Origin: a virus
UHGV virus genome: UHGV-0326727
Length of the DNA: 64,000 bases
Reading direction: 5' to 3' (one strand)
The position numbers and the translations under genes are program-made. The notes beneath the pieces are model-generated. The model had not been told where the DNA came from. It saw only the letters and a list, made by a program, of their open reading frames with translations, and did not search any database. How positions within the stretch are numbered: position 1 is the stretch's first letter; each line of letters opens with the position of its first letter. Positions 31,671 to 48,847 of the stretch are shown here, piece by piece.

Positions 31671-31694
31671 GAGGCTCCTACGGGAGCCTTTTTA
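31671..31694 (+). terminator. rho-independent terminator
   Basis: gaggctcctacgggagcctt hairpin followed by TTTT. Confidence 0.6.
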
Positions 31695-31710
31695 ATTTCT
31701 GGAGAAGATT

Positions 31711-35804: not shown

Positions 35805-35828
35805 AGGCTGCTTCGGCGGCCTTTTTTA
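35805..35828 (+). terminator. rho-independent terminator
   Basis: ggctgcttcggcggcc hairpin followed by TTTTTT. Confidence 0.6.
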
Positions 35829-35888
35829 TTTGTATTTTGTGCAGAGTGCTGTATAATTGTGGTCACGATAAACTAAACAGGAGAACCA

Positions 35889-37597: not shown

Positions 37598-37619
37598 AGG
37601 CTCCTTCGGGAGCCTTTTT
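37598..37619 (+). terminator. rho-independent terminator
   Basis: aggctccttcgggagcct hairpin followed by TTTTT. Confidence 0.65.
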
Positions 37620-37638
37620 CATTTCAGGAGATTGTTAA

Positions 37639-39443: not shown

Positions 39444-40229
39444 ATGGGTATTGTAAAAATCATCAATGGGGATATCTTCTCCGCATTTGATAAAGGTAAG
39501 TTTGATATTATTGGTCACGGTTGCAACTGTATGAATTTAATGGGTGCAGGTATCGCTGATAAGATTTCTAAACTTTACCCAAAAGCATATGAGACCGATA
39601 CAGAAGTTTATCTGTATGCAGGTGGTATAGGCCACAAACCCTGTGAAAATTTACTAGGCAATTTCTCTGTAGCACGTTTAAAACAAGGACGTATAGCTAA
39701 CCTTTACACTCAGCTTAAGACTGGTAAAGATGCCCGATACAGTGCTTTAGAGTCATCTTTGAAACAGCTTAACAGATACTGTGAAGTTAATCAGTTGAAG
39801 AAAGTTGGGCTACCTATGATTGGTGCAGGTATCGGTGGGCTAGACCCTCAAGCCGTCACCGTTATCATTAATCAGGTGATGAAGAGTGTAGATGTGTATC
39901 TGTATGTCTACGAAGGAGAGATGTACCACAAGTTACGCTCAGGTTGGAAGAACTACTGTGAACCAGAATACTTTGCAGGTGTAGTAGTGTTCACTGATGA
40001 TGCAGTTACCCTCTTCAGACGAAGAAAAGGTAAGATACATCAAAGTAACCCTCCGGTTGAAAAGATGTCTCTAAGTAACGCTCTAGTTACCCACCTGTCG
40101 AAGAGCAATCACAGAATTGCAGTAACATTTGGCAGTGATGCAGATACATATATCTATGCAAGAACTGATGAGGATGTTGAGGAAATTTTCTCTTCACCGG
40201 AAGTAACCTTCTTAGACGCAAAGAACTAA
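39444..40229 (+). CDS. macro-domain-like protein (putative ADP-ribose binding/processing)
   Basis: N-terminus IVKIINGDIFSAF...FDIIGHGCNCMNLMGAGIADKI parallels the macro-domain GDIT...VNAAN..LxGGGGVxxAI signature. Confidence 0.45.
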   Translation: MGIVKIINGDIFSAFDKGKFDIIGHGCNCMNLMGAGIADKISKLYPKAYETDTEVYLYAGGIGHKPCENLLGNFSVARLKQGRIANLYTQLKTGKDARYSALESSLKQLNRYCEVNQLKKVGLPMIGAGIGGLDPQAVTVIINQVMKSVDVYLYVYEGEMYHKLRSGWKNYCEPEYFAGVVVFTDDAVTLFRRRKGKIHQSNPPVEKMSLSNALVTHLSKSNHRIAVTFGSDADTYIYARTDEDVEEIFSSPEVTFLDAKN

Positions 40230-40289
40230 GAAACTCTGTAGAATATTCACAATAGGTTAAGCCTTTCTTATCTGGTAAATTTTTCAGGT

Positions 40290-40500
40290 AAGGAGGGCTT
40301 TTTCATTTCAGGATTGTGCAGGTAGAGTTCTGGACAGAAATCTGTAGAGAAAATTTTGAACTCCAAAGAGAAAATTCATTTTCAAACTGTGCAGGTAATC
40401 TCCAAAGAGCTTTTTCATTTTCAAAACGTGCAGACCCCGCTCAGGTCGGGCAAGAAAAATCATTTTAGAATTGTGCAGGTAGGTGGGTGCAGGTGGGGAT
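40290..40500. repeat. four direct repeats of a 25-bp motif (iteron-like)
   Basis: tcatttcaggattgtgcaggta / tcattttcaaactgtgcaggta / tcattttcaaaacgtgcaga / tcattttagaattgtgcaggta, plus extra gtgcaggtgggg; no ORF. Confidence 0.6.
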
Positions 40501-40657
40501 GTCGCCATTTCTCACAAGGCTACCACATCTGAAAAGAAAAGTCAACAGAAAAATTTGTAGCGGATTGAAAAATAATTCTTGATTGTAGTTCTGTTTTGTG
40601 GTAGTCGCGTGCGCCCGTTTCATTACAGTTTTTGCAAAAATATTTTTAAAATTCCTA

Positions 40658-40686
40658 TTGACTCTTTGAATATGGTTATCTAATAT
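40658..40686 (+). promoter_or_regulatory. sigma70-like promoter for the small-gene array
   Basis: TTGACT, 17-bp spacer, TAATAT. Confidence 0.5.
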
Positions 40687-40736
40687 TTGCATCAGACGGG
40701 CAATCAAGCCCACTTCCTAAACTGGAGAATCAAAAA

Positions 40737-40943
40737 ATGCTTTACAGTCGTGAATTGATGGTTACAACTAACGTTAACACAAAGTTAAAACGTTTTTATA
40801 TGCAAGTGTGCGGCGCATGGCGTAGAATATCAGAAGCTGATTATTGCAACTATGTAGAAACGGCAATCAATTCTAATTGCTACCTTACGAAGAATACAAA
40901 GCGACATATAAAACAGACAGCGGTTTACTATTACGATATATAA
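40737..40943 (+). CDS. hypothetical small protein (array gene 1)
   Basis: ATG preceded by the ...ctaaactggagaatcaaaaaatg leader. Confidence 0.4.
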   Translation: MLYSRELMVTTNVNTKLKRFYMQVCGAWRRISEADYCNYVETAINSNCYLTKNTKRHIKQTAVYYYDI

Positions 40944-41033
40944 AAAGTACTTTACAGGGGGCTTAAAAGCTGATATCTTAAGCCCCAGATAAAGAGCTTT
41001 ACTTAATTAACCCTTAAACTAGGAGATTCAAAA

Positions 41034-41414
41034 ATGGCTTATCGTGCACCTAAATTCATCAACAAAGACAACTTTCGCAACGCACTGGAGAAGTCACTTG
41101 ATGAAAATTTTAAAGGTAACATTATCGTTGTTCACGCATTCAATTTTAAGTATGATGTAAACGGGAATAGAATCAACCATTACACAGCAACCATGTTAGA
41201 TGGTACGCTATCAAGTGAAAAAGCTGTACTGAATGCACTTGCAGGACGTGGTAAAAACCTGATAAGATGCGATAAGAGACGTTATCAGGGTGGCGCATAT
41301 GGTTATGATGATGCTGTTTATCATCTTGAAAATATGGGCTATTCAGTGGAAAAAGCTGGAGTATCTCAAATAATCGGCAGTGACGGCTATGTGACAATTT
41401 TCAAAATTAACTAA
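41034..41414 (+). CDS. hypothetical small protein (array gene 2)
   Basis: Type-1 cassette upstream (hairpin ggggcttaa..ttaagcccc then ccttaaactaggagattcaaaaatg). Confidence 0.45.
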   Translation: MAYRAPKFINKDNFRNALEKSLDENFKGNIIVVHAFNFKYDVNGNRINHYTATMLDGTLSSEKAVLNALAGRGKNLIRCDKRRYQGGAYGYDDAVYHLENMGYSVEKAGVSQIIGSDGYVTIFKIN

Positions 41415-41502
41415 TAAAGTACTTTACAGGGGGCTTATAGTTCGATAAAGTAAGCCCCAGATAAAGAGCTTTACCACTAAATCCTAAATTGGAGATTCAA
41501 AA

Positions 41503-41793
41503 ATGGCTATTATTAAAAACGTTGTAATTCCTGCAAAAACTCGTGATGACGCTCGCATCATGGCGAAAAAGTTAGGCGGGAAAGTGGTTGACAACGGAAA
41601 ACAAACTGCTGTAAGGTGGAACGTGAAGGCGGATAAACAAATGAATTTAAAAAATTCACCAATAAACCTTTTTACATGTGTAAACACTATCGGGAAAACG
41701 AATGTATACACTAAAAAGGCATATATCAGACGCATCGCCATGACGTCACCTATTCGCACAATGAGAAGTCATGCAAAGCTGAAAATTAAGTAA
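41503..41793 (+). CDS. hypothetical small basic protein (array gene 3)
   Basis: Type-1 cassette upstream. Confidence 0.45.
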   Translation: MAIIKNVVIPAKTRDDARIMAKKLGGKVVDNGKQTAVRWNVKADKQMNLKNSPINLFTCVNTIGKTNVYTKKAYIRRIAMTSPIRTMRSHAKLKIK

Positions 41794-41883
41794 TAGAGTA
41801 CTTTACAGGGGGCTTAAAAGCTGATATCTTAAGCCCCAGATAAAGAGCTTTACCACTCAATCCTTAAACTAGGAGATTCAAAA

Positions 41884-42396
41884 ATGAAAACTGTAGACGC
41901 TACCTTTGAAGTTGTAAAAGAAAAATTTTCCATCATTTACGAAGCTGTCAATTGCTACGAAGCAAGCCATAATCTTGATAATTGGAAGTTTACAGATGAC
42001 CATCAAGGCGGTGTGACTATTAAAAACCCCAACTGTCAGCGTAATGGATTTAAATATGCAATTCCTTTACATTACAGCCTTAAACAGCTTTCAATTGACT
42101 ATGCAAAACAAGGCCGGGAAAATCCATCGAAAGAGGCTTACATCAGCTTACAGAAAGAACTAGAAAGAGATTTAGAGGCTTCAGAATATAACATCGCCGC
42201 GAAAGTTGTAGATGCAAACGGTAGCACGGTTTTAGAGAGTTTTTATATTGGTTATGCTTTCGATTGGTGCTACAGTGACGGCGATGATTTAGATGACAGA
42301 CTAAAAGAGGAAGTGAACAACGCAGACGCAGAATCTGAAGTATTAGAACGCTTGGAAGCATTAAAAGATTCAGTGATGAATATCTTTAAGAACTAA
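41884..42396 (+). CDS. hypothetical protein (array gene 4)
   Basis: Type-1 cassette upstream. Confidence 0.45.
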   Translation: MKTVDATFEVVKEKFSIIYEAVNCYEASHNLDNWKFTDDHQGGVTIKNPNCQRNGFKYAIPLHYSLKQLSIDYAKQGRENPSKEAYISLQKELERDLEASEYNIAAKVVDANGSTVLESFYIGYAFDWCYSDGDDLDDRLKEEVNNADAESEVLERLEALKDSVMNIFKN

Positions 42397-42487
42397 ATAG
42401 ACCTCTTTACACGGGGCTAACAAGCGGATATGATAGCCCCAGATAAAGAGATTTATCAAATTAACCCTTAAACTAGGAGATTCAAAA

Positions 42488-42784
42488 ATGAAATTATCAA
42501 ATAAAGTTAGGGAAAACCTTAGCAAATTACTCAACAAAATTGATTTTATAGAGACATCAAGGAATAGTCATGATGTTATGGAATGGTTACACGGCAAAAT
42601 AAAAGGCCGTCGTGTAGTGATTTGCTTATGGAATAGTTGCAGGGAGTATAAAAAGCCTGTATTGCAAATTAATGTTTATGATGATACTTTTAAAAGTCCT
42701 GTAAAGTCTAAAAGCGATTTATTAGAATCCTATGAGATAACTGTAAATGGCAAAGTATCACGTAAAGAGGAAACACCATGTTAA
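42488..42784 (+). CDS. hypothetical small protein (array gene 5)
   Basis: Type-1 cassette variant upstream (hairpin ggggcta..tagcccc). Confidence 0.45.
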   Translation: MKLSNKVRENLSKLLNKIDFIETSRNSHDVMEWLHGKIKGRRVVICLWNSCREYKKPVLQINVYDDTFKSPVKSKSDLLESYEITVNGKVSRKEETPC

Positions 42785-43110
42785 TGACTGGTATCACTGC
42801 AATCATTGCCATTTTCGCGCTATATAAGGCATATAAAGCCTATAATCTAGCAAATAAGGCAATCACACAGCAAGTTAGCAATAACCTTGTAGAGAGCTTT
42901 CTATGGCGTTTAAGTGATGAGCAAATAAAGCGGCTAGAGATGAGCTTCAGATATAAAGCGAAAACCTATCAGATAAGTGACATCTTCAAAGATGATTTCC
43001 AGTTAGTTGATGATTATAATTCTCTGATAAATGCTTTAAACATCAGTGACTTGAAAGACTATCACGCTGTAATTGTTCAAGAATTGAGCAAACGAAAACA
43101 AAGTGTTTGA
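42778..43110 (+). CDS. small membrane protein (array gene 6)
   Basis: Start overlaps upstream stop with GAGGA RBS; N-terminal hydrophobic segment. Confidence 0.4.
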   Translation: MLMTGITAIIAIFALYKAYKAYNLANKAITQQVSNNLVESFLWRLSDEQIKRLEMSFRYKAKTYQISDIFKDDFQLVDDYNSLINALNISDLKDYHAVIVQELSKRKQSV

Positions 43111-43135
43111 CACTGATTTTTAGATAGGTTAAATT
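43107..43135 (+). promoter_or_regulatory. sigma70-like promoter of type-2 cassette
   Basis: TTGACA, 17-bp spacer, TAAATT, followed by 5' UTR hairpin ggggaggggatgaccttcccc and conserved leader. Confidence 0.55.
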
Positions 43136-43201
43136 ACACATCAACGGGGAGGGGATGACCTTCCCCACTAAATAAAGTCCTTAAACTAGGAGATTCTAAA
43201 A

Positions 43202-43360
43202 ATGTTTTGTGCAGGTGATAAAGTTGTCTGGAATGATATAGATGACGGTTTATGTACGAAAGTTGTTGTTATCTTAGAAATTGATTATATCACTGGTGTT
43301 GCAACTGTAGCAGATAATGATATAATCTTTGATGTCTTAATTAGTGAACTGTCAAAATAA
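43202..43360 (+). CDS. hypothetical small protein (52 aa, array gene 7)
   Basis: Type-2 cassette upstream; below track cutoff. Confidence 0.4.
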   Translation: MFCAGDKVVWNDIDDGLCTKVVVILEIDYITGVATVADNDIIFDVLISELSK

Positions 43361-43386
43361 AGTCCTTAAACTAGGAGATTCAAAAA

Positions 43387-43659
43387 ATGTACACTACTAA
43401 CAACGGTCGCACCTTAAACGTAACCCTACGCCACTATGTGAACGGTGTAATGCACTTCGAGGATTTACAAGCTGAACAGCACATTTTGGATTGGCAACTT
43501 GCAGGATTCCAAAAAACTGCTACCGGATACGGGAAAAAGATTCCAACTAGCTGGAAAGTATACTACGAAGGCCGTTTGCGTAGAATTTATCAAGATGTAT
43601 ACAGTAATAGCGCATCAAGTTACATCATAGTAAAAGGTAAAAAGCTGCATTTAGTATAA
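43387..43659 (+). CDS. hypothetical small protein (array gene 8)
   Basis: Minimal leader taaagtccttaaactaggagattcaaaaaatg. Confidence 0.45.
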   Translation: MYTTNNGRTLNVTLRHYVNGVMHFEDLQAEQHILDWQLAGFQKTATGYGKKIPTSWKVYYEGRLRRIYQDVYSNSASSYIIVKGKKLHLV

Positions 43660-43744
43660 AGTACTTTACAAGGGGCTTATAGTTCGATAAAGTAAGCCCC
43701 AGATAAAGAGCTTTACCACTCAATCCTAAATTGGAGATTCTAAA

Positions 43745-44149
43745 ATGGCTATTAATAACCGTGAGTTATCAATCTTAAAAGCACGTTTGACCGTTAACCG
43801 GATTAATGTTATTACATCATCAGCACCGGATGAGACATTGCACAACATTATCGGGAAGATTCAAAGTGTTATCTTAGACGTTGAAAACGTAAAAAACTCA
43901 TTGGCTGACGTTGCAGCAGGTATCACGCTAGACGGTGCACAACATGAGATGTCTGACATGTTAGGCAAATCTAAGGTAATGAATAAAGAGCTTGATTTGA
44001 AAATGTTTCGTTTTGCTGTTAAAGTGTGGCTATCTGTCGAGTATGACGCAAATTTTGCAATCGCTGACTTTTTCGCAACATGGTTACAACGTAATTTAAC
44101 AAATCTTGATTTCCGTGATATCTGTGATGCAATTTACGCAGAACTTTAA
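43745..44149 (+). CDS. hypothetical protein (array gene 9)
   Basis: Type-1 cassette upstream. Confidence 0.45.
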   Translation: MAINNRELSILKARLTVNRINVITSSAPDETLHNIIGKIQSVILDVENVKNSLADVAAGITLDGAQHEMSDMLGKSKVMNKELDLKMFRFAVKVWLSVEYDANFAIADFFATWLQRNLTNLDFRDICDAIYAEL

Positions 44150-44158
44150 AAATTTTTC

Positions 44159-44187
44159 TTGATTTTGGTTTTAAAAGCAAGTAAATT
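44159..44187 (+). promoter_or_regulatory. sigma70-like promoter of type-2 cassette
   Basis: TTGATT, 17-bp spacer, TAAATT, then hairpin ggggagggaatgaccttcccc. Confidence 0.5.
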
Positions 44188-44252
44188 ACTAATCAACGGG
44201 GAGGGAATGACCTTCCCCACTAAGTAAAGTCCTTAAACTAGGAGATTCAAAA

Positions 44253-44456
44253 ATGGCTATTATTAACGGTTTAAACATTGAAACTACTCACATCAAAGAT
44301 ATCAAAGTCGGGGATATAGTCCTTTTTCACGGCGTAGAAAAAACCGTCACTGAAAAGGATATCAAGGAGGACTCATTCATGGGCCGGACTCTCTTCGGTG
44401 ATTCCTATTGCTTAGGTTACCTTGCAGTTTTAAAAGTTGTCAAAAATAATCGTTAA
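44253..44456 (+). CDS. hypothetical small protein (array gene 10)
   Basis: Type-2 cassette upstream. Confidence 0.45.
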   Translation: MAIINGLNIETTHIKDIKVGDIVLFHGVEKTVTEKDIKEDSFMGRTLFGDSYCLGYLAVLKVVKNNR

Positions 44457-44543
44457 AGTACTTTACAAGGGGCTTATAGTTCGATAAAGTAAGCCCCAGA
44501 TAAAGAGCTTTATCACTAAATCCTTAAACTAGGAGATTCAAAA

Positions 44544-45086
44544 ATGAAATGCTTTCACGGTACTACTCAAGAAAACTTTATCAACCTGATTAATAACGGT
44601 GATAAACCATCAGGCGCATGGAATTGTTCGGATATGGACGGCAATTTTTACGTGTATCCAGAAAATAAAATCTATGGCGACGATGAGGAAGAAATAATCT
44701 CTGAAGGTATCCAGCAAGCTTTAGGCAATGCCACTATAACCGCAGCTTTCCAGATGAAAACCCAAAATATTGTTATCTTAGAACTTGATATCCCAGAGGA
44801 TGAGTTGAATGATGATTATTCTTGTGATAATATGTCGAGCGTAGCAAGTTTTACAGAATACTTCGATTTAAATTGGATTAAAAAGGTTTACGTAACCGAG
44901 TTTAATGCAATGTTTTCACCTTTTTGTCTTCCTTCACTGGATAACCCAAATTTAAACTATCTTGAGGAGACATTAGAACTACTTGCTAAAAGTGTTCAAC
45001 AGTCGGACAGTATTCAGGTTTTTTGTGACATCATGGATACACTGACAGGAAACATTACAGAAGAGGATTTAAAGAGCTTTTTATAA
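44544..45086 (+). CDS. hypothetical acidic protein with N-terminal FHGT motif (array gene 11)
   Basis: Type-1 cassette upstream; MKCFHGTTQENF... see findings. Confidence 0.4.
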   Translation: MKCFHGTTQENFINLINNGDKPSGAWNCSDMDGNFYVYPENKIYGDDEEEIISEGIQQALGNATITAAFQMKTQNIVILELDIPEDELNDDYSCDNMSSVASFTEYFDLNWIKKVYVTEFNAMFSPFCLPSLDNPNLNYLEETLELLAKSVQQSDSIQVFCDIMDTLTGNITEEDLKSFL

Positions 45087-45151
45087 TAACCTATACAATC
45101 CCTTATAAATACTGATTAGCCCCTCATAGGGGCTTTTAGGAGGCTTAAATC

Positions 45152-45385
45152 ATGCTTACAACCATTTACCTCATCCTTTCTATTTGTAATGGTCATTCAT
45201 GCGATTTTAAAGGGCTTGAGGAGTTTACAGGGAGTAAAGAAAATGCCGTTCAAGTGTGCCAGATAGCAAGGCAAGACTATCCCGCCAGTGATGATATACA
45301 ATGTTACTTTAAGACAGAAGATGAAGACGGTATCTATTTTGACAGCGTAGATGGTCAATATGAAATTATCATTGAAAAAGACTAG
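45152..45385 (+). CDS. hypothetical small protein (array gene 12)
   Basis: Upstream hairpin agcccctcataggggct and AGGAGG RBS. Confidence 0.4.
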   Translation: MLTTIYLILSICNGHSCDFKGLEEFTGSKENAVQVCQIARQDYPASDDIQCYFKTEDEDGIYFDSVDGQYEIIIEKD

Positions 45386-45474
45386 ACAAGCCTGATAAAA
45401 GTCTGTAAATTGTCAATCAACGGGAGGTAATAACCTCCCCACTAAGTAAAGTCCTTAAACTAGGAGATTCTAAA

Positions 45475-45816
45475 ATGGCTTATGTAACCGTAATTACCGA
45501 TAAAGCTGGCTCATCTTGGTCAACTCAAGTAAGTGATAAGATGTCACCTATGCAGTGCCTAAAATACTTTGAGCAATGGAACAAAGGCGAGAATGTCAGC
45601 CCCTTTCAAGTCATGCAGATTATCCATACAGATAACGAAGGGAATAAAACTGTTTTGAATAGTGAGTACTATGCAACCAGATTCGAAACGAGAAGTAAAG
45701 CAATGAAGCTTTTGCGTGAGTCTGGTTATTCTCATATTGCCTCACTAATCTGGGATGACCTGCTAAAAAATCAGCGTATCAGCTATGTAAAACCTGAAAA
45801 AATATTCATCAGTTAA
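45475..45816 (+). CDS. hypothetical protein (array gene 13)
   Basis: Type-2 cassette upstream. Confidence 0.45.
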   Translation: MAYVTVITDKAGSSWSTQVSDKMSPMQCLKYFEQWNKGENVSPFQVMQIIHTDNEGNKTVLNSEYYATRFETRSKAMKLLRESGYSHIASLIWDDLLKNQRISYVKPEKIFIS

Positions 45817-45848
45817 TCAATAACTTACAAAAAACTTTTTAAAAAGTA

Positions 45849-45877
45849 TTGACAATACCCCTTGACATTGGTAAATT
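45849..45877 (+). promoter_or_regulatory. sigma70-like promoter
   Basis: TTGACA, 17-bp spacer, TAAATT. Confidence 0.5.
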
Positions 45878-45944
45878 TGTTCGAGGGGGTTTATCTAAAA
45901 GGGATTAACTTAAAAGATTCTTTATAGATAAGCTTAAAAAATTG

Positions 45945-45973
45945 CTTGCAATCAGATATCAAAACAAGTAAAT
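45945..45973 (+). promoter_or_regulatory. sigma70-like promoter of type-2 cassette
   Basis: TTGCAA, 17-bp spacer, TAAATT, followed by hairpin gggagggataacctccct. Confidence 0.5.
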
Positions 45974-46037
45974 TACTAATCAACGGGAGGGATAACCTCC
46001 CTACTAAGTAAAGTCCTTAAACTAGGAGATTCAAAAA

Positions 46038-46568
46038 ATGAACAAGTTCAAAGCTATCAACTTCATTCGTTCAAATAGTGTTATGTCAAAGCCTGTTAAA
46101 GATACCTATGAATTTCGTTGCAATGGGGTGCATTTTGCAACCATCACCAAATCAGAAAACGGAGCTTATTACATCCATCGCCGTAATGTTGCAACCGTTG
46201 TTGTCTCTCACTTTATGCAAGCTGTCGCGGAACTTCTCCCGATGTTTTTAGGGCTTTACTTGGATGAGTGTAAAAACGTTCACAATCACGTTAAAAACCT
46301 TTTAAACAGCTATAAAATGGCTTATGAACGTTCTATCAAGTCATTGAACAAGTTTTACAACGCACCTGAAAATACTGTATCAATAGCTTATGGTGTAAGC
46401 GGTGAAATGGTAAACTTATCCAATGTGGAAGAAATCAAGCTGCATGATTTACGCCCTAACGGTTACGCTAAAACCATCGGTGAAGGTTTAACTTTCAATA
46501 TCAAGAACTTAGAAAAAACTTTAAAAGATATTGAAAAAGATATTGACGAGACAATCAAAAGTCTGTAA
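46038..46568 (+). CDS. hypothetical protein (array gene 14)
   Basis: Type-2 cassette upstream. Confidence 0.45.
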   Translation: MNKFKAINFIRSNSVMSKPVKDTYEFRCNGVHFATITKSENGAYYIHRRNVATVVVSHFMQAVAELLPMFLGLYLDECKNVHNHVKNLLNSYKMAYERSIKSLNKFYNAPENTVSIAYGVSGEMVNLSNVEEIKLHDLRPNGYAKTIGEGLTFNIKNLEKTLKDIEKDIDETIKSL

Positions 46569-46634
46569 ATTGTCAATCAACGGGGAGGGAATGGCCTTCC
46601 CCACTAAATAAAGTCCTAAACTGGAGTTATCAAG

Positions 46635-46898
46635 ATGGAAAACGTCGAACTGACCACACTTTTACAAATTGCAACCGACAAAGAGGATGTAGCATTATTC
46701 CACCGTATCGAAAGTGATTTGTTCAATGGTGAAATCATTAAAGAATCTTACGAAGTGGTCGGATTCAAAGATGGTAAAACATTTGGATTCTTTGACCTCG
46801 ACAAAGGCAACGCTATTACAAAGTATGATGTTTTATCTTGTGAGATTCTGACAAAATACAACGAAAAAAGACTTGCAACATACGCCAACATGCAGTAA
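46635..46898 (+). CDS. hypothetical small protein (array gene 15)
   Basis: Type-2 cassette variant upstream. Confidence 0.45.
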   Translation: MENVELTTLLQIATDKEDVALFHRIESDLFNGEIIKESYEVVGFKDGKTFGFFDLDKGNAITKYDVLSCEILTKYNEKRLATYANMQ

Positions 46899-46974
46899 AT
46901 TACTAATCAACGGGAGGGATGACCTCCCTACTAAATAAAGTCCTTAAACTACTTCCTAAACTGGAGATTCTAAA

Positions 46975-47223
46975 ATGGCAACTATCCGCGCAATTGTAAA
47001 TTCTTATGGCTGCTACACTCTGGACGTTAAATTTGATATCGGTGGGACTGATGAGTGTTTCGAACTGGTGAAGACAGTCATTAAACAAGTTATCCCAGAC
47101 TATAACCCTACTGATGACTTCTGGAAAGATGCCGTAAAAGAGGCGTTGAACGATGAATATCATTACCATTATTGGGGTGACTTGATTGTCTCACTGTACT
47201 ACAATAAACAAGGTTGCAACTAA
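46975..47223 (+). CDS. hypothetical small protein (array gene 16)
   Basis: Type-2 cassette upstream; last gene before terminator. Confidence 0.45.
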   Translation: MATIRAIVNSYGCYTLDVKFDIGGTDECFELVKTVIKQVIPDYNPTDDFWKDAVKEALNDEYHYHYWGDLIVSLYYNKQGCN

Positions 47224-47260
47224 TCGACGCAACGGGGCAAATAGCCCCAGATACCTTTAC

Positions 47261-47284
47261 AGCCCCTTAAATGGGGCTTTTTTA
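47261..47284 (+). terminator. rho-independent terminator ending the plus-strand array
   Basis: agccccttaaatggggct hairpin followed by TTTTTT. Confidence 0.65.
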
Positions 47285-47285
47285 C

Positions 47286-48810
47286 GTCTTATCAAATCCC
47301 TATGCAATCCTTTCCCTTTCCTTTCCAGAATCTATCCCATACCTTAAAAGCAATAACTCTATAGCTTACTCTATAGCCCCTTATCAAATCAACTTAAATA
47401 TAAGCCCATAACCCGAAAGGGAAGGGCAACCATTTAAACGCTCTATAAAGCCCTATAACAGCCTTATCAACCTAACTTAAGGGATTGCATTACCTCACCC
47501 TTAAAAGCCCTTTATAAAGCTTCCCAGAGCCTTAAAAGAATCTTATAAGGGTGTAAGCTTTATTATCTCGTTAGCTATCTTGTGAATGGTTAAACAACCC
47601 CTTGATAGTCACTAAAAAGTATGTTATAGGGGCTATAAAGTTACTTCAAAGTTACGTAAATGCTAGCCCCCTTAACATTTTCTTAACAATTTCTTAACAA
47701 TCCCTACATAGTTATGCTTTTAAGGCACTTGTTAGCAACTTGTTAGCCCCTTGTTAAATCTCTGTTAATACCTCGTAAAAGCCTTGTAAGAGCCTTTGGC
47801 ATAGCCTTTAAAGCTTCTGTAAAGCCTTATAAAGAGCTTTCTACATAGTTGGGGTGTAATTACTAGAAAGAGATTAAAAAGAGCTTATAAGGGGCTATAA
47901 AGGGCTTTTAAGAGGGCTATTTAAAGAGTCACTAAGAAGGAAAGGGAACGATAAGAAAGAGATAGTGACCATGTTAATAGCTTGTTAAAAAGATTAGACA
48001 CTTGTTAGGAACTTGTTAATTATCTTAACAAAATAACTCTTTAAAATTAACTTGTTAGCTCTTGTTAGTCATCTGTTAAGCCTCTGTAAAGACTATGTAT
48101 CAACTGTTAAGAAACTGTTAAGCTCTTGTTAGTTCTGTTAAGGAACTGTTAAGACCTCTGAAGAGATGTTAAGAAGATGTAGCAACTGTTAAGGGATTGT
48201 TAATGATATTTTAAAATTCTGCAAAGGGGATGTTACAGAGATGTTAAGGGCTACCAAGCAGATATACATCTTCTACAGATATTTTTCAGTTCCTTCAAAG
48301 ACCCTAAAAAATGACTTGATAGTCCTATTTTATAAAAATTTTAAAATTCTGAATAATTACCTATACAGTCTTTTAAAAATACAGGCATAAACAGGCTTAT
48401 AAGATACCTTGTTAGTACCGTGTTAGACCTTGTGAGATAAGGTCTGTAAAGATATTCCTGTTAAGTTTGTTAAAACAGCCTATATAGAGGCTTAGTAATA
48501 CCTAGTGAACACCTATAGAGGGTAACATAGCTAACCTAGAGATTAAGAGGTGTATAGGGGCTTCTAAGAGGGTGTAGAGTGATGGTTAAGGTGATTGTAT
48601 AGGTTGTTAAGAAGGCTTGTTAGAAGAGTGTTTAGAAGGGCTATACAGAGGGGCTATTAAGACCACTAGATAGATACTAAGATACTATATAGTACTATAT
48701 AACTATATATATAGAGAGTAAGCTTAAGAAGGTTGTTAAGAAGGTTAGATATTTTATTCACATATGATGGTGACCCATAGGTTGGGACAACCGATAAAAT
48801 TTTATAAAAA
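47286..48810. repeat. 1.5-kb ORF-free island of degenerate 9-11 bp periodic repeats
   Basis: No ORF of 60 aa or more on either strand; repeat families ccTTATAAag/cTATAAAG (about 47400-47900), CTTGTTAG/CTGTTAAG in both orientations (47680-48200, e.g. caactgttaag aaactgttaag ctcttgttag ttctgttaag gaactgttaag), and a TATATA-rich tract near 48650-48720. Confidence 0.75.
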
Positions 48811-48811
48811 T

Positions 48812-48836
48812 TAAAAAGCCCCCAATTAAGGAGGCT
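48812..48836 (-). terminator. rho-independent terminator for the minus-strand block
   Basis: Reverse complement reads agcctccttaattgggggct + TTTTT, the same hairpin as at 12154-12177. Confidence 0.6.
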
Positions 48837-48847
48837 CTTAAGATATT

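What the first reader, a model, noticed from the sequence alone, without database searches (positions are those of the whole stretch)
40737..47285. Array of 16 unrelated small genes, each behind a stereotyped promoter/stem-loop/RBS cassette
Nearly every gene is preceded by one of two cassette types that share the leader TCCTTAAACTAGGAGATTCAAAAATG. Type 1 has a hairpin ggggcttaa...ttaagcccc (with a covarying variant ggggcta...tagcccc) followed by agataaagagctttaccact. Type 2 has a sigma70-like promoter (-35 TTGACA/TTGATT/TTGCAA, 17 bp, -10 TAAATT) followed by a G/C hairpin ggggaggg...ccttcccc. The encoded proteins (52-180 aa) show no obvious mutual similarity. Repeated regulatory cassettes around diverse small ORFs are what one expects in hyperplastic accessory regions that often hold host-takeover or anti-defence genes.
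Basis: partly seen in the sequence, partly recalled or inferred. Interest (0 to 1): 0.7.

Follow-up and report, generated by a model that had tools for sequence, protein, structure and literature searches.

The report
Phage early-gene promoter–hairpin cassette array
This is the variable early-gene block at the right end of a Felix O1-like phage genome, where 16 small genes of unknown function each sit behind a repeated promoter/hairpin/ribosome-site cassette; the cassettes closely resemble the "PeSL" shuffling cassettes known from T4-like phages, so it is a real, tidy extension of a known idea rather than a new kind of system.

Summary
The window is a Felixounavirus (Felix O1-like). Positions 40737-47223 hold 16 same-strand ORFs (52-180 aa) in 16 unrelated families. 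None has a Pfam domain.

Twelve of the 15 junctions, plus the entry junction, carry one of two stereotyped cassettes. The motifs occur nowhere else in the 64 kb.

It reads TTTACA-N17-TAnnnT, with the spacer and -10 inside the GC hairpin. Over 174 unique copies the -35 is invariant, and -10 positions 1, 2 and 6 are conserved while 3-5 vary. Type 2 is UP/TTGACA-N17-TAAATT, followed by a hairpin about 3 nt from the predicted transcript start.

The hairpins show G.U pairs, strand asymmetry and compensatory changes. Type 1 extends to a roughly 60-nt three-helix hairpin.

Across relatives, gene order is collinear but content varies (9-17 of the window's families). A missing gene is usually replaced by exactly one cassette. 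Crossover points differ between phages, and empty, duplicated and chimeric cassettes occur. Stems evolve in concert.

This matches the PeSL cassettes of T4-like phages by architecture, not by homology. The Felix O1 paper and the wV8 GenBank record list the repeats only as "direct repeats". No promoter activity, RNA role or gene function has been tested.

The parts
40259..40300 (+). Intrinsic terminator ending the upstream unit (Felix O1 t13 equivalent), after the macro-domain/phosphatase gene 39444-40229
   Evidence: 17-bp stem plus T run; t13 sequence in PMC3185647; Macro domain
40630..40736 (+). Entry cassette: A/T-rich UP-like tract, promoter TTGACT-17-TAATAT (40658-40686), hairpin GGGCAATCAAGCCC (40698-40711), leader CTTCCTAAACTGGAGAATC
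   Evidence: hairpin plus SD mini-hairpin, -11.1 kcal/mol
40737..40943 (+). g1, 68 aa, phrog_5293, unknown
40944..41033 (+). Type-1 cassette: promoter TTTACA-17-TATCTT (40951-40979); long hairpin 40944-41000; leader plus SD
   Evidence: (I5)
41034..41414 (+). g2, 126 aa, phrog_4495, unknown
41415..41502 (+). Type-1 cassette: promoter TTTACA-17-TAAAGT (41423-41451); hairpin arms 41406-41437 / 41451-41482
   Evidence: (I2)
41503..41793 (+). g3, 96 aa, very basic (pI 11), phrog_5089
41794..41883 (+). Type-1 cassette: promoter TTTACA-17-TATCTT (41802-41830); three-helix hairpin, MFE -25.6 kcal/mol, z -3.4
   Evidence: (I1)
41884..42396 (+). g4, 170 aa, acidic; homologue of Felix O1 ORF16 (maximal at 5 min)
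42397..42487 (+). Type-1 cassette, short-stem variant: promoter TTTACA-17-TATGAT (42406-42434); hairpin 42397-42456, MFE -25.1, z -4.8
   Evidence: (I3)
42488..43110 (+). g5 (98 aa) and g6 (110 aa, N-terminal hydrophobic segment); they overlap by 7 nt with no cassette between them
43107..43201 (+). Type-2 cassette: TTGACA-17-TAAATT (43107-43135; the g6 stop TGA lies inside the -35), hairpin 43146-43166, leader
43202..43360 (+). g7, 52 aa, no PHROG; rare among relatives; flanked on both sides by direct repeats of the ~25-nt leader
43361..43386 (+). Leader-only junction (ATAAAGTCCTTAAACTAGGAGATTC), with no promoter or hairpin
43387..43659 (+). g8, 90 aa, phrog_3436; present in all relatives examined, including Kolesnikvirus
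43660..43744 (+). Type-1 cassette: TTTACA-17-TAAAGT (43665-43693); hairpin 43657-43715
   Evidence: (I6)
43745..44149 (+). g9, 134 aa; homologue of Felix O1 ORF20 (maximal at 5 min)
44150..44252 (+). Type-2 cassette: TTGATT-17-TAAATT (44159-44187), hairpin 44198-44218
   Evidence: (D5)
44253..44456 (+). g10, 67 aa, phrog_3623
44457..44543 (+). Type-1 cassette: TTTACA-17-TAAAGT (44462-44490); hairpin 44454-44512
   Evidence: I7
44544..45086 (+). g11, 180 aa, pI 4.1, net charge -24; weak ADP-ribosyltransferase-fold hint
45087..45151 (+). Non-cassette junction: terminator-like hairpin AGCCCCTCATAGGGGCT plus TTTT (45118-45137), then its own SD (AGGAGG)
   Evidence: annotated as a terminator in the wV8 and Barry records
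45152..45385 (+). g12, 77 aa, acidic, N-terminal hydrophobic stretch with Cys
45383..45474 (+). Type-2 cassette: TAGACA-17-TAAATT (45383-45411; the g12 stop TAG lies inside the -35), hairpin 45422-45440
45475..45816 (+). g13, 113 aa; homologue of Felix O1 ORF21 (maximal at 5 min)
45817..46037 (+). Long junction with two promoters: TTGACA-17-TAAATT with TG (45849-45877), and type-2 TTGCAA-17-TAAATT (45946-45974) with hairpin 45985-46001
   Evidence: (D7)
46038..46568 (+). g14, 176 aa; homologue of Felix O1 ORF22 (maximal at 5 min); conserved out to Kolesnikvirus
46543..46634 (+). Type-2 cassette: -35 TTGACG inside g14; the g14 stop TAA is the start of the -10 TAAATT (46566-46571); hairpin 46582-46602
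46635..46898 (+). g15, 87 aa, phrog_7022
46873..46974 (+). Type-2 cassette: TTGCAA-17-TAAATT (46873-46901; the g15 stop lies inside the -10), hairpin 46912-46928, and a duplicated chimeric leader TCCTTAAACTA|CTTCCTAAACTGGAG (about 46937-46965), read as a recombination scar
   Evidence: JN01 has the single leader at the same junction
46975..47223 (+). g16, 82 aa; last gene; present in all Felixounavirus and Mooglevirus loci examined
47230..47284 (+). Exit: degenerate cassette remnant (CAACGGGGCAAATAGCCCCAGATACCTTTACA) fused to a canonical intrinsic terminator (47261-47278 plus T6)

Best explanation
The array is the last block of the host-RNA-polymerase-dependent early transcription unit of a Felix O1-like myovirus. 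It lies about 390 bp from the terminal repeat. It is built from single-gene expression modules of the form: stop codon, sigma70-type promoter, G-rich/C-rich stem-loop, conserved 5' leader with SD, small ORF.

Type 1 is TTTACA-N17-TAnnnT, with the spacer and -10 embedded in a GC stem. That stem extends into a roughly 60-nt three-helix hairpin.

Type 2 is UP tract/TTGACA-like-N17-TAAATT. Its transcript would begin 2-3 nt before a stable GC hairpin.

Proposed working:
1. Each small gene is transcribed on its own by host E-sigma70 immediately after infection (inferred).
2. The hairpins act at RNA level as module boundaries. In type 2 they would be a 5'-terminal protective stem-loop. In type 1, which folds only in read-through RNA, they would be a 3'-end, processing or attenuation structure (inferred).
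3. The 25-100 nt of near-identical sequence between genes serves as in-register homology for the phage's recombination. This adds, deletes, duplicates and occasionally moves whole gene-plus-cassette units and homogenises the cassettes. The comparative patterns show this; the rate and the enzymes involved are not known.

It works like the PeSL cassettes of T4-like phages.
For: Identity of the phage: 254 phage records match, nearly all Felix O1-like phages (named Escherichia, Salmonella, Shigella, Citrobacter or Felixounavirus); the best are 90-92% identical.

Promoters:
- An independent scan finds TTTACA-17-TATCTT, TAAAGT or TATGAT in all six type-1 copies. It finds TTGACA-like-17-TAAATT in four of the six type-2 junctions, plus an extra promoter in the g13/g14 spacer; the other two (44159, 45946) match only 8 of 12 positions and were read from the sequence.
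- Over 174 unique type-1 copies from 61 sources, anchored only on the -35 and the downstream motif, the hexamer at spacer 17 reads T 167/174, A 167/174, three variable positions (information 0.46, 0.09, 0.20 bits), then T 168/174.
- Over 144 unique type-2 copies: T T G a c a at -33..-28, a variable 17-nt spacer, T(144) A(143) a a t T(143), and an A tract at -43..-38.

Hairpins:
- All 144 type-2 copies fold, with 46 distinct hairpin sequences and a mean of -13.3 kcal/mol. Ninety-eight have a G.U pair. The sense strand is more stable than the antisense in 109.
- On 79 distinct type-1 sequences the named structure pairs in 92.8% of cells, against at most 54.5% when the partners are slid. There are GC-to-UA double changes at two pairs, and U.G versus C-G at a third.
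- Type-1 MFE is -24 to -25.6 kcal/mol, z -3.4 to -4.8.

Plasticity:
- Order is collinear while content varies: 13 architectures in 16 full loci.
- Of 56 junctions where a window gene is missing, 45 hold exactly one cassette of 110 nt or less.
- Crossover points differ between phages. For example, g14/g16 junctions carry either the g14-type or the g15-type sequence after TAAATT.
- Scars exist: empty tandem cassettes in E9, a g3 duplication in Michonne, chimeric leaders in the window, HMD-P10 and JN01, and direct leader repeats flanking g7.
- Stems are genus-specific in all copies: GGGGC, GGGGT, GGTGT..GCACC.

Timing: Felix O1 homologues of g4, g9, g13 and g14 are maximal at 5 min.

PeSL definition and the T4/PST consensus TTTACW-N17-TAYWAT: PMC2839356 and PMC4122927.
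Against: - There are no transcription-start, reporter or RNA-end data for any Felix O1-like phage in the searched literature.
- Cassette copies are related by descent and gene conversion, so the counts are not independent events. Some loci are the same phage from two collections.
- The -10 position-6 T is also part of the stem, so its conservation has two possible causes.
- The Felix O1 RT-PCR placed homologues of g5, g8 and g16 at 25 min, not 5 min.
- Not every indel is cassette-mediated: g5 is lost in L27 leaving a 16-nt non-cassette junction.
- Order is collinear within the two closest genera, so 'shuffling' there is mostly gain and loss. Changes of position are seen only against Kolesnikvirus (g5 and f31).
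- Neither hairpin type is followed by a U tract, so the terminator role shown for PeSLs may not apply here.
Confidence: 0.7

Rival explanations
1. Type-1 elements are primarily RNA processing or stabilising sites, not promoters. The array would be transcribed as one long RNA from the entry promoter and the type-2 promoters. The roughly 60-nt three-helix hairpin (6+5+9 bp with 1x1 and 3x3 internal loops) would be cut by RNase III or an equivalent enzyme, as at the intergenic sites of T7 early RNA. That would give gene-sized mRNAs with protective 3' hairpins.
For: - The inverted repeat is long, with arms of 23-33 nt, and the MFE structure uses all three helices.
- The lower helix shows a GC-to-UA double change in 12 sequences. 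The otherwise mismatched pair 8-54 becomes U-A in 9.
- The segment CAGATAAAGAGCTTTA, which forms the 3' arm, is the most conserved part of the cassette across three genera.
- The architecture resembles T7 RNase III sites (my own knowledge).
Against: - The TAnnnT signature at exactly 17 nt from an invariant TTTACA, with positions 3-5 free, is what a promoter predicts and what a stem-loop does not.
- The two readings are compatible, since read-through RNA can fold while the DNA acts as a promoter.
- No RNase III determinant can be scored with these tools.
Confidence: 0.25
2. The hairpins are transcription terminators or attenuators that insulate each module, as shown by reporter assay for an RB49 PeSL stem-loop and as annotated for some copies in public records.
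For: - PeSL stem-loops were effective terminators in a lacZ assay (PMC2839356).
- The KhF1 and wV8 records label some copies as 'terminator'.
- The stems are GC-rich, 8-9 bp.
Against: - No U tract follows either type. Type 1 is followed by AGAUAAAG and type 2 by ACUAAAUAAAG, and the terminator scan reports none of them.
- The same phage uses canonical hairpin-plus-T-run terminators at both array borders, and a weaker hairpin-plus-TTTT after g11 that the scan did not report.
- In type 2 the hairpin lies downstream of its own promoter. An efficient terminator there would abort the cassette's own transcript.
Confidence: 0.15
3. The conserved palindromes (TAAAGTACTTTA and TAAAGAGCTTTA flanking the type-1 stem, ATAAAGTCCTT after type 2) are operators for a phage or host DNA-binding protein that shuts early promoters off. 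On this reading the apparent hairpins are by-products of dyad-symmetric binding sites.
For: - TAAAGNNCTTTA occurs 8 times in the window, all inside the array, against 0.24 expected.
- ATAAAGNNCTT occurs 21 times against 1.1 expected, 13 of them inside the array.
- One copy overlaps the -35 and the other the predicted +1.
- Early shut-off must exist in this phage, and its mechanism is unknown (PMC3185647).
Against: - G.U (G.T) pairs and the constant G-arm-first orientation point to folding of the + strand RNA, not to symmetric duplex sites.
- In the variant TAAATTGCTTTA the internal dyad is broken, while complementarity to the distal arm (GAGATTT) is kept.
- No candidate regulator was identified.
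Confidence: 0.1
4. The cassettes are only conserved expression signals inherited from a common ancestor. The gene-content differences arise from ordinary deletions filtered by selection, and the cassettes have no special role in recombination.
For: - Gene order is collinear in Felixounavirus and Mooglevirus.
- Some losses are not cassette-bounded, for example g4/g6 with a 16-nt junction.
Against: - 45 of 56 gene-missing junctions are one intact cassette.
- Several different crossover points occur for the same gene loss.
- Tandem empty cassettes, a cassette-bounded duplication and chimeric type-1/type-2 leaders exist.
- All paralogous copies in a genome share genus-specific stem changes, including the compensatory pair in Kolesnikvirus. 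That needs gene conversion between copies.
Confidence: 0.12

Closest known systems
PeSL (promoter-early stem-loop) cassettes of T4-like phages RB49/phi1, T4/PST and KVP40/nt-1 (Arbiol et al. 2010, PMC2839356; Comeau et al. 2014, PMC4122927)
   Same: - Intergenic repeats of about 60-100 bp, clustered in a variable block of small genes of unknown function.
- Each runs from the upstream stop codon, through an A/T-rich stretch, a sigma70-type -35/N17/-10 and a G-run/C-run stem-loop, to SD and ATG.
- The stem-loop lies either between or over the -35 and -10 (like type 1 here) or just downstream of the -10 (like type 2 here).
- They are associated with whole-gene indels between close relatives, with crossovers inside the cassette.
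- The T4/PST PeSL promoter consensus TTTACW-N17-TAYWAT is nearly the type-1 consensus found here.
   Different: - There is no sequence homology: the cassette query hits almost only Ounavirinae (Felix O1-like) records and no T4-like phage records.
- The host lineage is different, Ounavirinae rather than T4-like.
- There is one array next to the genome terminus rather than several hyperplastic regions.
- Type 1 has an extended three-helix hairpin that pairs the -35 flank with the start of the transcript.
- A shared leader with an SD-occluding mini-hairpin is present.
- Promoter and terminator activity and mini-circles were shown for PeSLs and are untested here.
'Direct repeats' in the Felix O1 paper (Whichard et al. 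2010, PMC3185647) and DR_1-DR_9 in the wV8 GenBank record EU877232
   Same: They are the same sequences. The Felix O1 57-bp repeat CTTTACATGGGGCTTAAAAGTCTGTAAAGTAAGCCCCAGATAAAGAGCTTTACCACT is type 1. The 39-bp repeat TTGACACTGGTTTTTAGATAGATTAAATTACACATCAAC is the type-2 promoter.
   Different: They were listed only as repeats. They were not recognised as promoters (they are absent from that paper's promoter list), as hairpins or as recombination linkers.
SPO1 host-takeover module and the T5 pre-early region (clusters of small early genes near a terminal repeat, each with strong host-type promoters)
   Same: A dense block of small early genes of mostly unknown or host-directed function, next to the direct terminal repeat, driven by multiple host-sigma promoters with strong SDs (my own knowledge; abstracts of PMC6873191 and 10.64898/2026.04.02.716235).
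   Different: A host-takeover function is shown for SPO1 and T5 and is unknown here. Those modules are not described as repeated promoter/stem-loop cassettes with in-register gene indels.
T7 early-region RNase III processing sites
   Same: Intergenic hairpins of roughly 20 bp with internal loops, lying between consecutive early genes.
   Different: T7 sites contain no promoters and are not near-identical repeats. Cleavage is not tested here.
Integron gene cassettes and lambdoid 'morons'
   Same: Single-gene units that are added to or lost from an array. Morons carry their own promoter and terminator.
   Different: No integrase or attC-type site is present. Exchange would be by general homologous recombination between repeated regulatory DNA.

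Membership tests
PeSL-type regulatory/recombination cassette | Repeated intergenic motif clustered in a variable block of small ORFs | tested here: met
   Motifs are confined to 40.7-47.0 kb of the 64-kb window. There are 13 architectures in 16 full loci.
PeSL-type regulatory/recombination cassette | Contains a sigma70-type early promoter (-35, about 17 nt, -10), often with an A/T-rich upstream tract | tested here: met
   Met at sequence level only. The scan finds all six type-1 promoters and four of six type-2 promoters. Position-specific conservation was measured over 174 and 144 unique copies. Activity is not tested.
PeSL-type regulatory/recombination cassette | Stable stem-loop (G run ... 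C run) placed between or over the -35 and -10, or just downstream of the -10 | tested here: met
   Type 1: stem between the -35 and -10, overlapping the -10. Type 2: stem 10 nt after the -10.
PeSL-type regulatory/recombination cassette | Upstream stop codon at the 5' edge; SD and start codon at the 3' edge | tested here: met
   Stops are embedded in TAAAGTAC, in the -35 (TGA, TAG) or in the -10 (TAA). The SD (GGAG) lies 8-10 nt before the ATG.
PeSL-type regulatory/recombination cassette | Gene insertions, deletions or replacements between close relatives have their ends inside the cassettes | tested here: met
   45 of 56 gene-missing junctions are one cassette. Crossover points vary, and scars and duplications exist. 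The sample has partly redundant loci.
PeSL-type regulatory/recombination cassette | Stem-loop acts as a terminator/attenuator; the promoter is active in vivo | not testable with these tools
   Needs reporter, TSS or Term-seq data. None was found for Felix O1-like phages. The absence of a U tract argues against efficient intrinsic termination.
PeSL-type regulatory/recombination cassette | Formation of cassette-bounded mini-circles during infection | not testable with these tools
   Needs inverse PCR on infected cells.
PeSL-type regulatory/recombination cassette | Sequence homology to the T4-like PeSLs, or residence in a T4-like genome | tested here: not met
   Cassette queries hit almost only Felix O1-like (Ounavirinae) phage records and no T4-like phage records. 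PeSL sets of different T4-like clades also differ in sequence, so this is analogy within an architecture-defined class.
Intrinsic (Rho-independent) terminator | GC-rich hairpin immediately followed by a U-rich tract | tested here: not met
   None of the 12 cassette hairpins is reported by the terminator scan. The two border terminators (40259-40300 and 47261-47278) are reported; the third site reported lies inside g10. The 45118-45137 hairpin was read from the sequence and from the wV8 and Barry records.
RNase III processing site (T7 early type) | About two turns of imperfect dsRNA with an internal loop, supported by covariation | tested here: inconclusive
   A structure of 20 pairs in three helices is predicted, is 92.8% paired, and has two pairs with compensatory changes. 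Cleavage determinants cannot be scored.
Known RNA families (Rfam 15) | Match to a curated covariance model | tested here: not met
   Only one sub-threshold chance hit, outside the array.
Integron | Integrase gene plus attI/attC recombination sites | tested here: not met
   No array ORF or the upstream macro-domain gene has any integrase or other recombinase domain in Pfam. The rest of the window was not scanned. The repeats are promoters and hairpins, not attC-like sites.

The most novel reading that the evidence does not exclude
The type-1 element may be a true dual-use module: a sigma70 promoter nested inside a roughly 60-nt three-helix RNA hairpin. The 3' arm of that hairpin is also the conserved start of the promoter's own transcript. 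Read-through RNA would then fold and be processed or insulated, while locally initiated RNA could not fold.

Together with type 2, and with the concerted evolution of the copies, this would make the block a recombinase-independent, integron-like gene-cassette platform at the genome terminus. It would be conserved across a whole subfamily (Felixounavirus, Mooglevirus, Kolesnikvirus) and would trade small host-directed genes. One of those genes may be a divergent ADP-ribosyltransferase, sitting next to a macro-domain gene.
Probability: 0.15. Interest if true: 0.7.

Novelty: new member of a known kind. Interest (0 to 1): 0.42.

Why it matters
If confirmed, PeSL-type cassettes are not a peculiarity of T4-like phages. 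They would be a convergent solution in large virulent phages: one short repeat that gives each accessory gene its own early expression and also keeps gene gain and loss in register.

It would also supply the early promoters of Felix O1-like phages. These phages are widely used for Salmonella and E. coli typing and biocontrol, and the genome paper said it could not explain how their early region is transcribed.

Finally, it marks a defined set of about 16-20 small early genes as the place to look for host-takeover or anti-defence functions. It also offers natural, portable expression cassettes and safe insertion sites for engineering these phages.

Tried and rejected
- Rfam on 40-49 kb: nothing.
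- Pfam on all 16 ORFs: nothing. PHROGs: only 'unknown function' families.
- g11 was followed further because it is very acidic.
  - Its homologues appear to come only from Felix O1-like phages (named hits are Shigella and Enterobacteria phages and one E. coli entry; most hits are unnamed).
  - The AlphaFold model is poor, pLDDT 57.
  - A profile search against PDB sequences and a per-member Pfam scan gave no support.
  - I keep this only as a lead.
- Palindromic-operator reading of TAAAGnnCTTTA: considered and ranked low, because the variants keep inter-arm pairing rather than the internal dyad.
- Mot-box-like GCTTTA-N11-12-TAAAYT inside type 1 (compare the PmSLs of nt-1): a start there would remove the SD, and Felix O1 is reported to lack MotA/AsiA-type factors. 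Not pursued.
- The paired T/A insertion in the leader (250 versus 154 instances, no mixed forms) could be a helix-extending indel, but two tightly linked alleles explain it equally well. I do not count it as covariation.
- I tried to place the terminal repeat from the UAB_Phi87 record, but that record is not opened at the physical ends. I used the 580-nt identical ends of the E9 record instead.
- Literature searches for TSS mapping or RNA-seq of Felix O1-like phages, and for PeSL together with Felix O1, found nothing relevant.
- The comparative Felixounavirus paper (PMC8300805) does not discuss this region.

Full report
**What the window is.** The 6.6-kb stretch matches 254 phage records. Nearly all are Felix O1-like phages of Escherichia, Salmonella, Shigella and Citrobacter, and the best full-length matches are 90-92% identical (finno, HMD-P10). 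The window also carries the block of 24 tRNA genes typical of these phages. Felix O1 itself has the homologous block as ORF15-ORF23. The array starts after a macro-domain 'phosphatase' gene (39444-40229) and a strong intrinsic terminator (40259-40300). It ends at another intrinsic terminator (47261-47278).

**Check of the observation.**
- There are 16 + strand ORFs of 52-180 aa between 40737 and 47223.
- All-against-all blastp puts them in 16 separate families. None has a Pfam domain. Fifteen belong to 15 different PHROGs, all of unknown function.
- The shared leader CCTTAAACTAGGAGATTC occurs 9 times exactly, against 0.08 expected.
- The type-1 motif CCCCAGATAAAGAGCTTTA occurs 6 times, against 0.04 expected.
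- The type-2 motif TAAATTnnnnATCAACGGG occurs 6 times exactly.
- All copies are on the + strand and only inside the array. A repeat search of the flanking 26 kb finds none.
- Reading every junction gives six type-1 cassettes, six type-2 cassettes plus a type-2-like entry cassette, one leader-only junction (g7/g8), one terminator-like hairpin with its own SD (g11/g12), and one gene overlap (g5/g6).

- Type 1 is also a promoter. An independent consensus scan reports TTTACA-17-TATCTT, TAAAGT or TATGAT in all six type-1 cassettes.
- To avoid circularity I collected 174 unique type-1 copies from the window, 12 GenBank loci and 48 IMG/VR loci. I anchored them only on the downstream motif and the -35.
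- At a 17-nt spacing the hexamer reads T (167/174), A (167/174), three nearly free positions (0.46, 0.09 and 0.20 bits), then T (168/174). The TTTACA is invariant.
- That is the TAnnnT signature of a sigma70 -10 element. It lies in the loop and 3' arm of the hairpin.
- One caveat: position 6 is also a stem base, and the copies are not independent.

**Type 2.**
- Over 144 unique copies anchored on ATCAACGGG, type 2 shows T T G a c a at -33..-28 and a variable 17-nt spacer. The -10 reads T(144) A(143) a a t T(143), and there is an A tract at -43..-38.
- In several cassettes the upstream stop codon is built into the promoter. TGA or TAG lies in the -35, and TAA is the start of TAAATT.

**The hairpins.**
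- A start 7-8 nt after TAAATT falls on the AA of ATCAAC. The GC stem begins 3 nt from that AA in all 144 type-2 copies.
- There are 46 different type-2 hairpin sequences, with a mean of -13.3 kcal/mol. Ninety-eight contain a G.U pair. The sense strand folds better than the antisense in 109 of 144.
- In type 1 the GC stem (GGGGCTTA/TAAGCCCC) is only the top of a longer structure. The inverted repeat has arms of 23-33 nt.
- The predicted minimum-energy fold is three helices of 6, 5 and 9 pairs. They are separated by a 1x1 and a 3x3 internal loop. MFE is -24 to -25.6 kcal/mol and z is -3.4 to -4.8.
- On an alignment of 79 distinct copies this named structure is paired in 92.8% of cells, against at most 54.5% when the partners are slid.
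- Pair 19-43 changes from G-C to U-A in the 8 Kolesnikvirus sequences. Pair 6-56 changes from G-C to U-A in 12 sequences. Pair 21-41 is U.G in 40 sequences and C-G in 37.
- G.U pairs and the constant G-arm-first orientation indicate folding of the + strand RNA rather than a symmetric DNA site.
- Because the type-1 start would lie inside the 3' arm, this hairpin can form only in RNA that reads through from upstream.
- Neither hairpin type is followed by a U tract. The terminator scan reports only the two border terminators and one site inside g10. Efficient intrinsic termination is therefore unlikely.
- No Rfam family matches.
- The leaders also fold into a small CCU(U)...(A)GG hairpin over the SD. 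Only two leader forms exist, never mixed, which I treat as suggestive only.

**Comparative evidence.**
- Cassette-like sequences occur throughout Ounavirinae. Type 1 reaches Mooglevirus and Kolesnikvirus (Erwinia, Hafnia and Cronobacter phages). Type 2 reaches Mooglevirus.
- Kolesnikvirus has further versions with the same layout but other stems, for example TTGCAA/TTTACA followed by GGGGTTA...TAACCCC.
- Within Felixounavirus and Mooglevirus the gene order is strictly collinear, but content varies. There are 13 architectures in 16 complete loci. Felix O1 keeps 9 of the 16 genes, and other phages carry extra genes.
- Against Kolesnikvirus, g5 and family f31 sit at different positions.
- Of 56 junctions where one or more window genes are missing, 45 consist of exactly one cassette of normal length.
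- The same loss has different crossover points in different phages. g14/g16 junctions carry either the g14-type (GTCA) or the g15-type (ACTA) sequence after TAAATT. g3/g5 junctions switch either just after the stem or in the leader.
- Scars are present:
  - two cassettes in tandem with no gene in E9;
  - a cassette-bounded duplication of g3 with an empty cassette in Michonne;
  - type-1/type-2 chimeric leaders in HMD-P10 and JN01;
  - a duplicated chimeric leader in the window itself at about 46937-46965;
  - direct leader repeats on both sides of the rare gene g7.
- All paralogous copies in a genome share genus-specific stem bases: GGGGC in most Felixounavirus, GGGGT in all 10 Michonne copies, and GGTGT..GCACC in all 4 Kolesnikvirus copies. 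This needs gene conversion between copies.
- Not every event is cassette-mediated. Loss of g5 in L27 leaves a 16-nt junction.

**Timing and context.**
- In Felix O1, RT-PCR gave maximal signal at 5 min for ORF16, 20, 21 and 22 (g4, g9, g13, g14) and at 25 min for ORF17, 19 and 23 (g5, g8, g16) (PMC3185647).
- The E9 record has identical first and last 580 nt, which map to window positions about 47666-48255. This fits the 608-bp terminal repeat measured for UAB_Phi87 (PMC4837284).
- The array is therefore the last transcription unit before the physical right end of the genome.

**Comparison with what is known.**
- The Felix O1 paper lists a 57-bp and a 39-bp 'direct repeat' that are exactly type 1 and the type-2 promoter. 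It does not include them among its promoters, and it states that transcription past the terminators is unexplained.
- The wV8 GenBank record annotates them as DR_1 to DR_9. The wV8 paper does not mention repeats, promoters or terminators.
- I found no paper linking these phages to PeSLs, and none mapping their transcripts.
- The architecture matches PeSLs:
  - repeated intergenic cassettes in variable regions of T4-like phages;
  - stop codon, A/T-rich tract, sigma70-type promoter and G-run/C-run stem-loop, with the stem-loop between or over the -35 and -10 or after the -10;
  - SD and ATG at the 3' edge;
  - recombination inside the cassettes.
- The T4/PST PeSL promoter consensus is TTTACW-N17-TAYWAT.
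- There is no sequence homology to the T4-like PeSLs, and the promoter, terminator and mini-circle experiments have not been done here.
- I therefore file this as a new member of an architecture-defined class, found in another phage subfamily. It has its own features: the extended type-1 hairpin, the shared leader, and a single terminal array.

**Gene functions remain unknown.**
- Simple properties: g3 is very basic, g4, g11 and g12 are acidic, and g6 has an N-terminal hydrophobic segment.
- There is no sequence-level support for that reading. It is only a lead, made slightly more interesting by the macro-domain gene next to the array.

**Verdict.**
- Best explanation, at about 0.7: PeSL-like early promoter/stem-loop cassettes that give each small gene its own early expression and serve as in-register recombination linkers.
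- Shown: the sequence signatures, the RNA-level pairing signals and the comparative recombination patterns.
- Inferred: promoter activity, the RNA role of the hairpins and the functions of the genes.

Noticed in passing
window 40294-40500 (also 35817-35844): Four tandem copies, 39-73 bp apart, of TTTTCATTT(T)-N6-8-(T)GTGCAG(G/A). They lie between the upstream terminator and the array's entry promoter. The same motif follows the rIIB terminator. It is conserved in Barry, finno, wV8, Felix O1, HMD-P10, JN01, L27 and Michonne. Its function is unknown; a phage-specific promoter or regulator sites are possibilities.
   Followed up: partly
window ~47666-48255: Probable direct terminal repeat. The E9 record has identical first and last 580 nt that map here, so the window spans the joined genome ends. 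The array ends about 390 bp before the repeat.
   Followed up: partly
window 47290-48840: A 1.5-kb stretch with no ORF of 60 aa or more. It is full of short repeats: CTTGTTAG/ACTGTTAAG units with 11-bp spacing at 47723-48203, and CTTATAAAG/CCTTTAAAG-like words. These are possibly packaging or replication signals of the terminal region.
   Followed up: no
window 31672-31705, 35805-35838, 37598-37631: A second stereotyped junction type in the upstream early region. A terminator hairpin (AGGCTCC-TTCG-GGAGCC) plus TTTTT is followed directly by (C/A)ATTTC(A/T)GGAGA and a start codon, giving a terminator/RBS cassette without the type-1 or type-2 motifs.
   Followed up: no
window 46937-46965: Duplicated chimeric leader TCCTTAAACTA|CTTCCTAAACTGGAG before g16. 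JN01 has a single leader at the same junction. I read it as a recombination scar between two leader variants.
   Followed up: yes
window 40995-41030 and the other type-1 cassettes: GCTTTA, then 11-12 nt, then TAAAYT inside the 3' half of type 1. This resembles the Mot-box/-10 layout of T4 middle promoters and the 'PmSL' of phage nt-1. A start there would lack the SD, and no MotA/AsiA homologue is reported for Felix O1.
   Followed up: partly
[not shown]
   Followed up: partly
window 47230-47284: The exit terminator is built on a cassette remnant. CAACGGGG...CCCCAGATA (type-2 prefix plus type-1 suffix) and CTTTACA are followed by the terminator hairpin where a type-1 stem would sit.
   Followed up: no
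L010-L012 (Erwinia, Hafnia and Cronobacter phages), e.g. L010 10140-10620: Kolesnikvirus arrays carry a third cassette form, TTGCAA or TTTACA followed by GGGGTTACGGTTATGAGACTATAACCCC, and a different leader (AACAACCCTTAyAAAGGAATCA). The layout is the same as in the window but the sequence differs.
   Followed up: partly
phage collection hits GU169904 (Staphylococcus phage SA1) and one Campylobacter record: Felix O1-type cassettes occur in records named for unrelated hosts. These are most likely mixed or contaminated assemblies.
   Followed up: no
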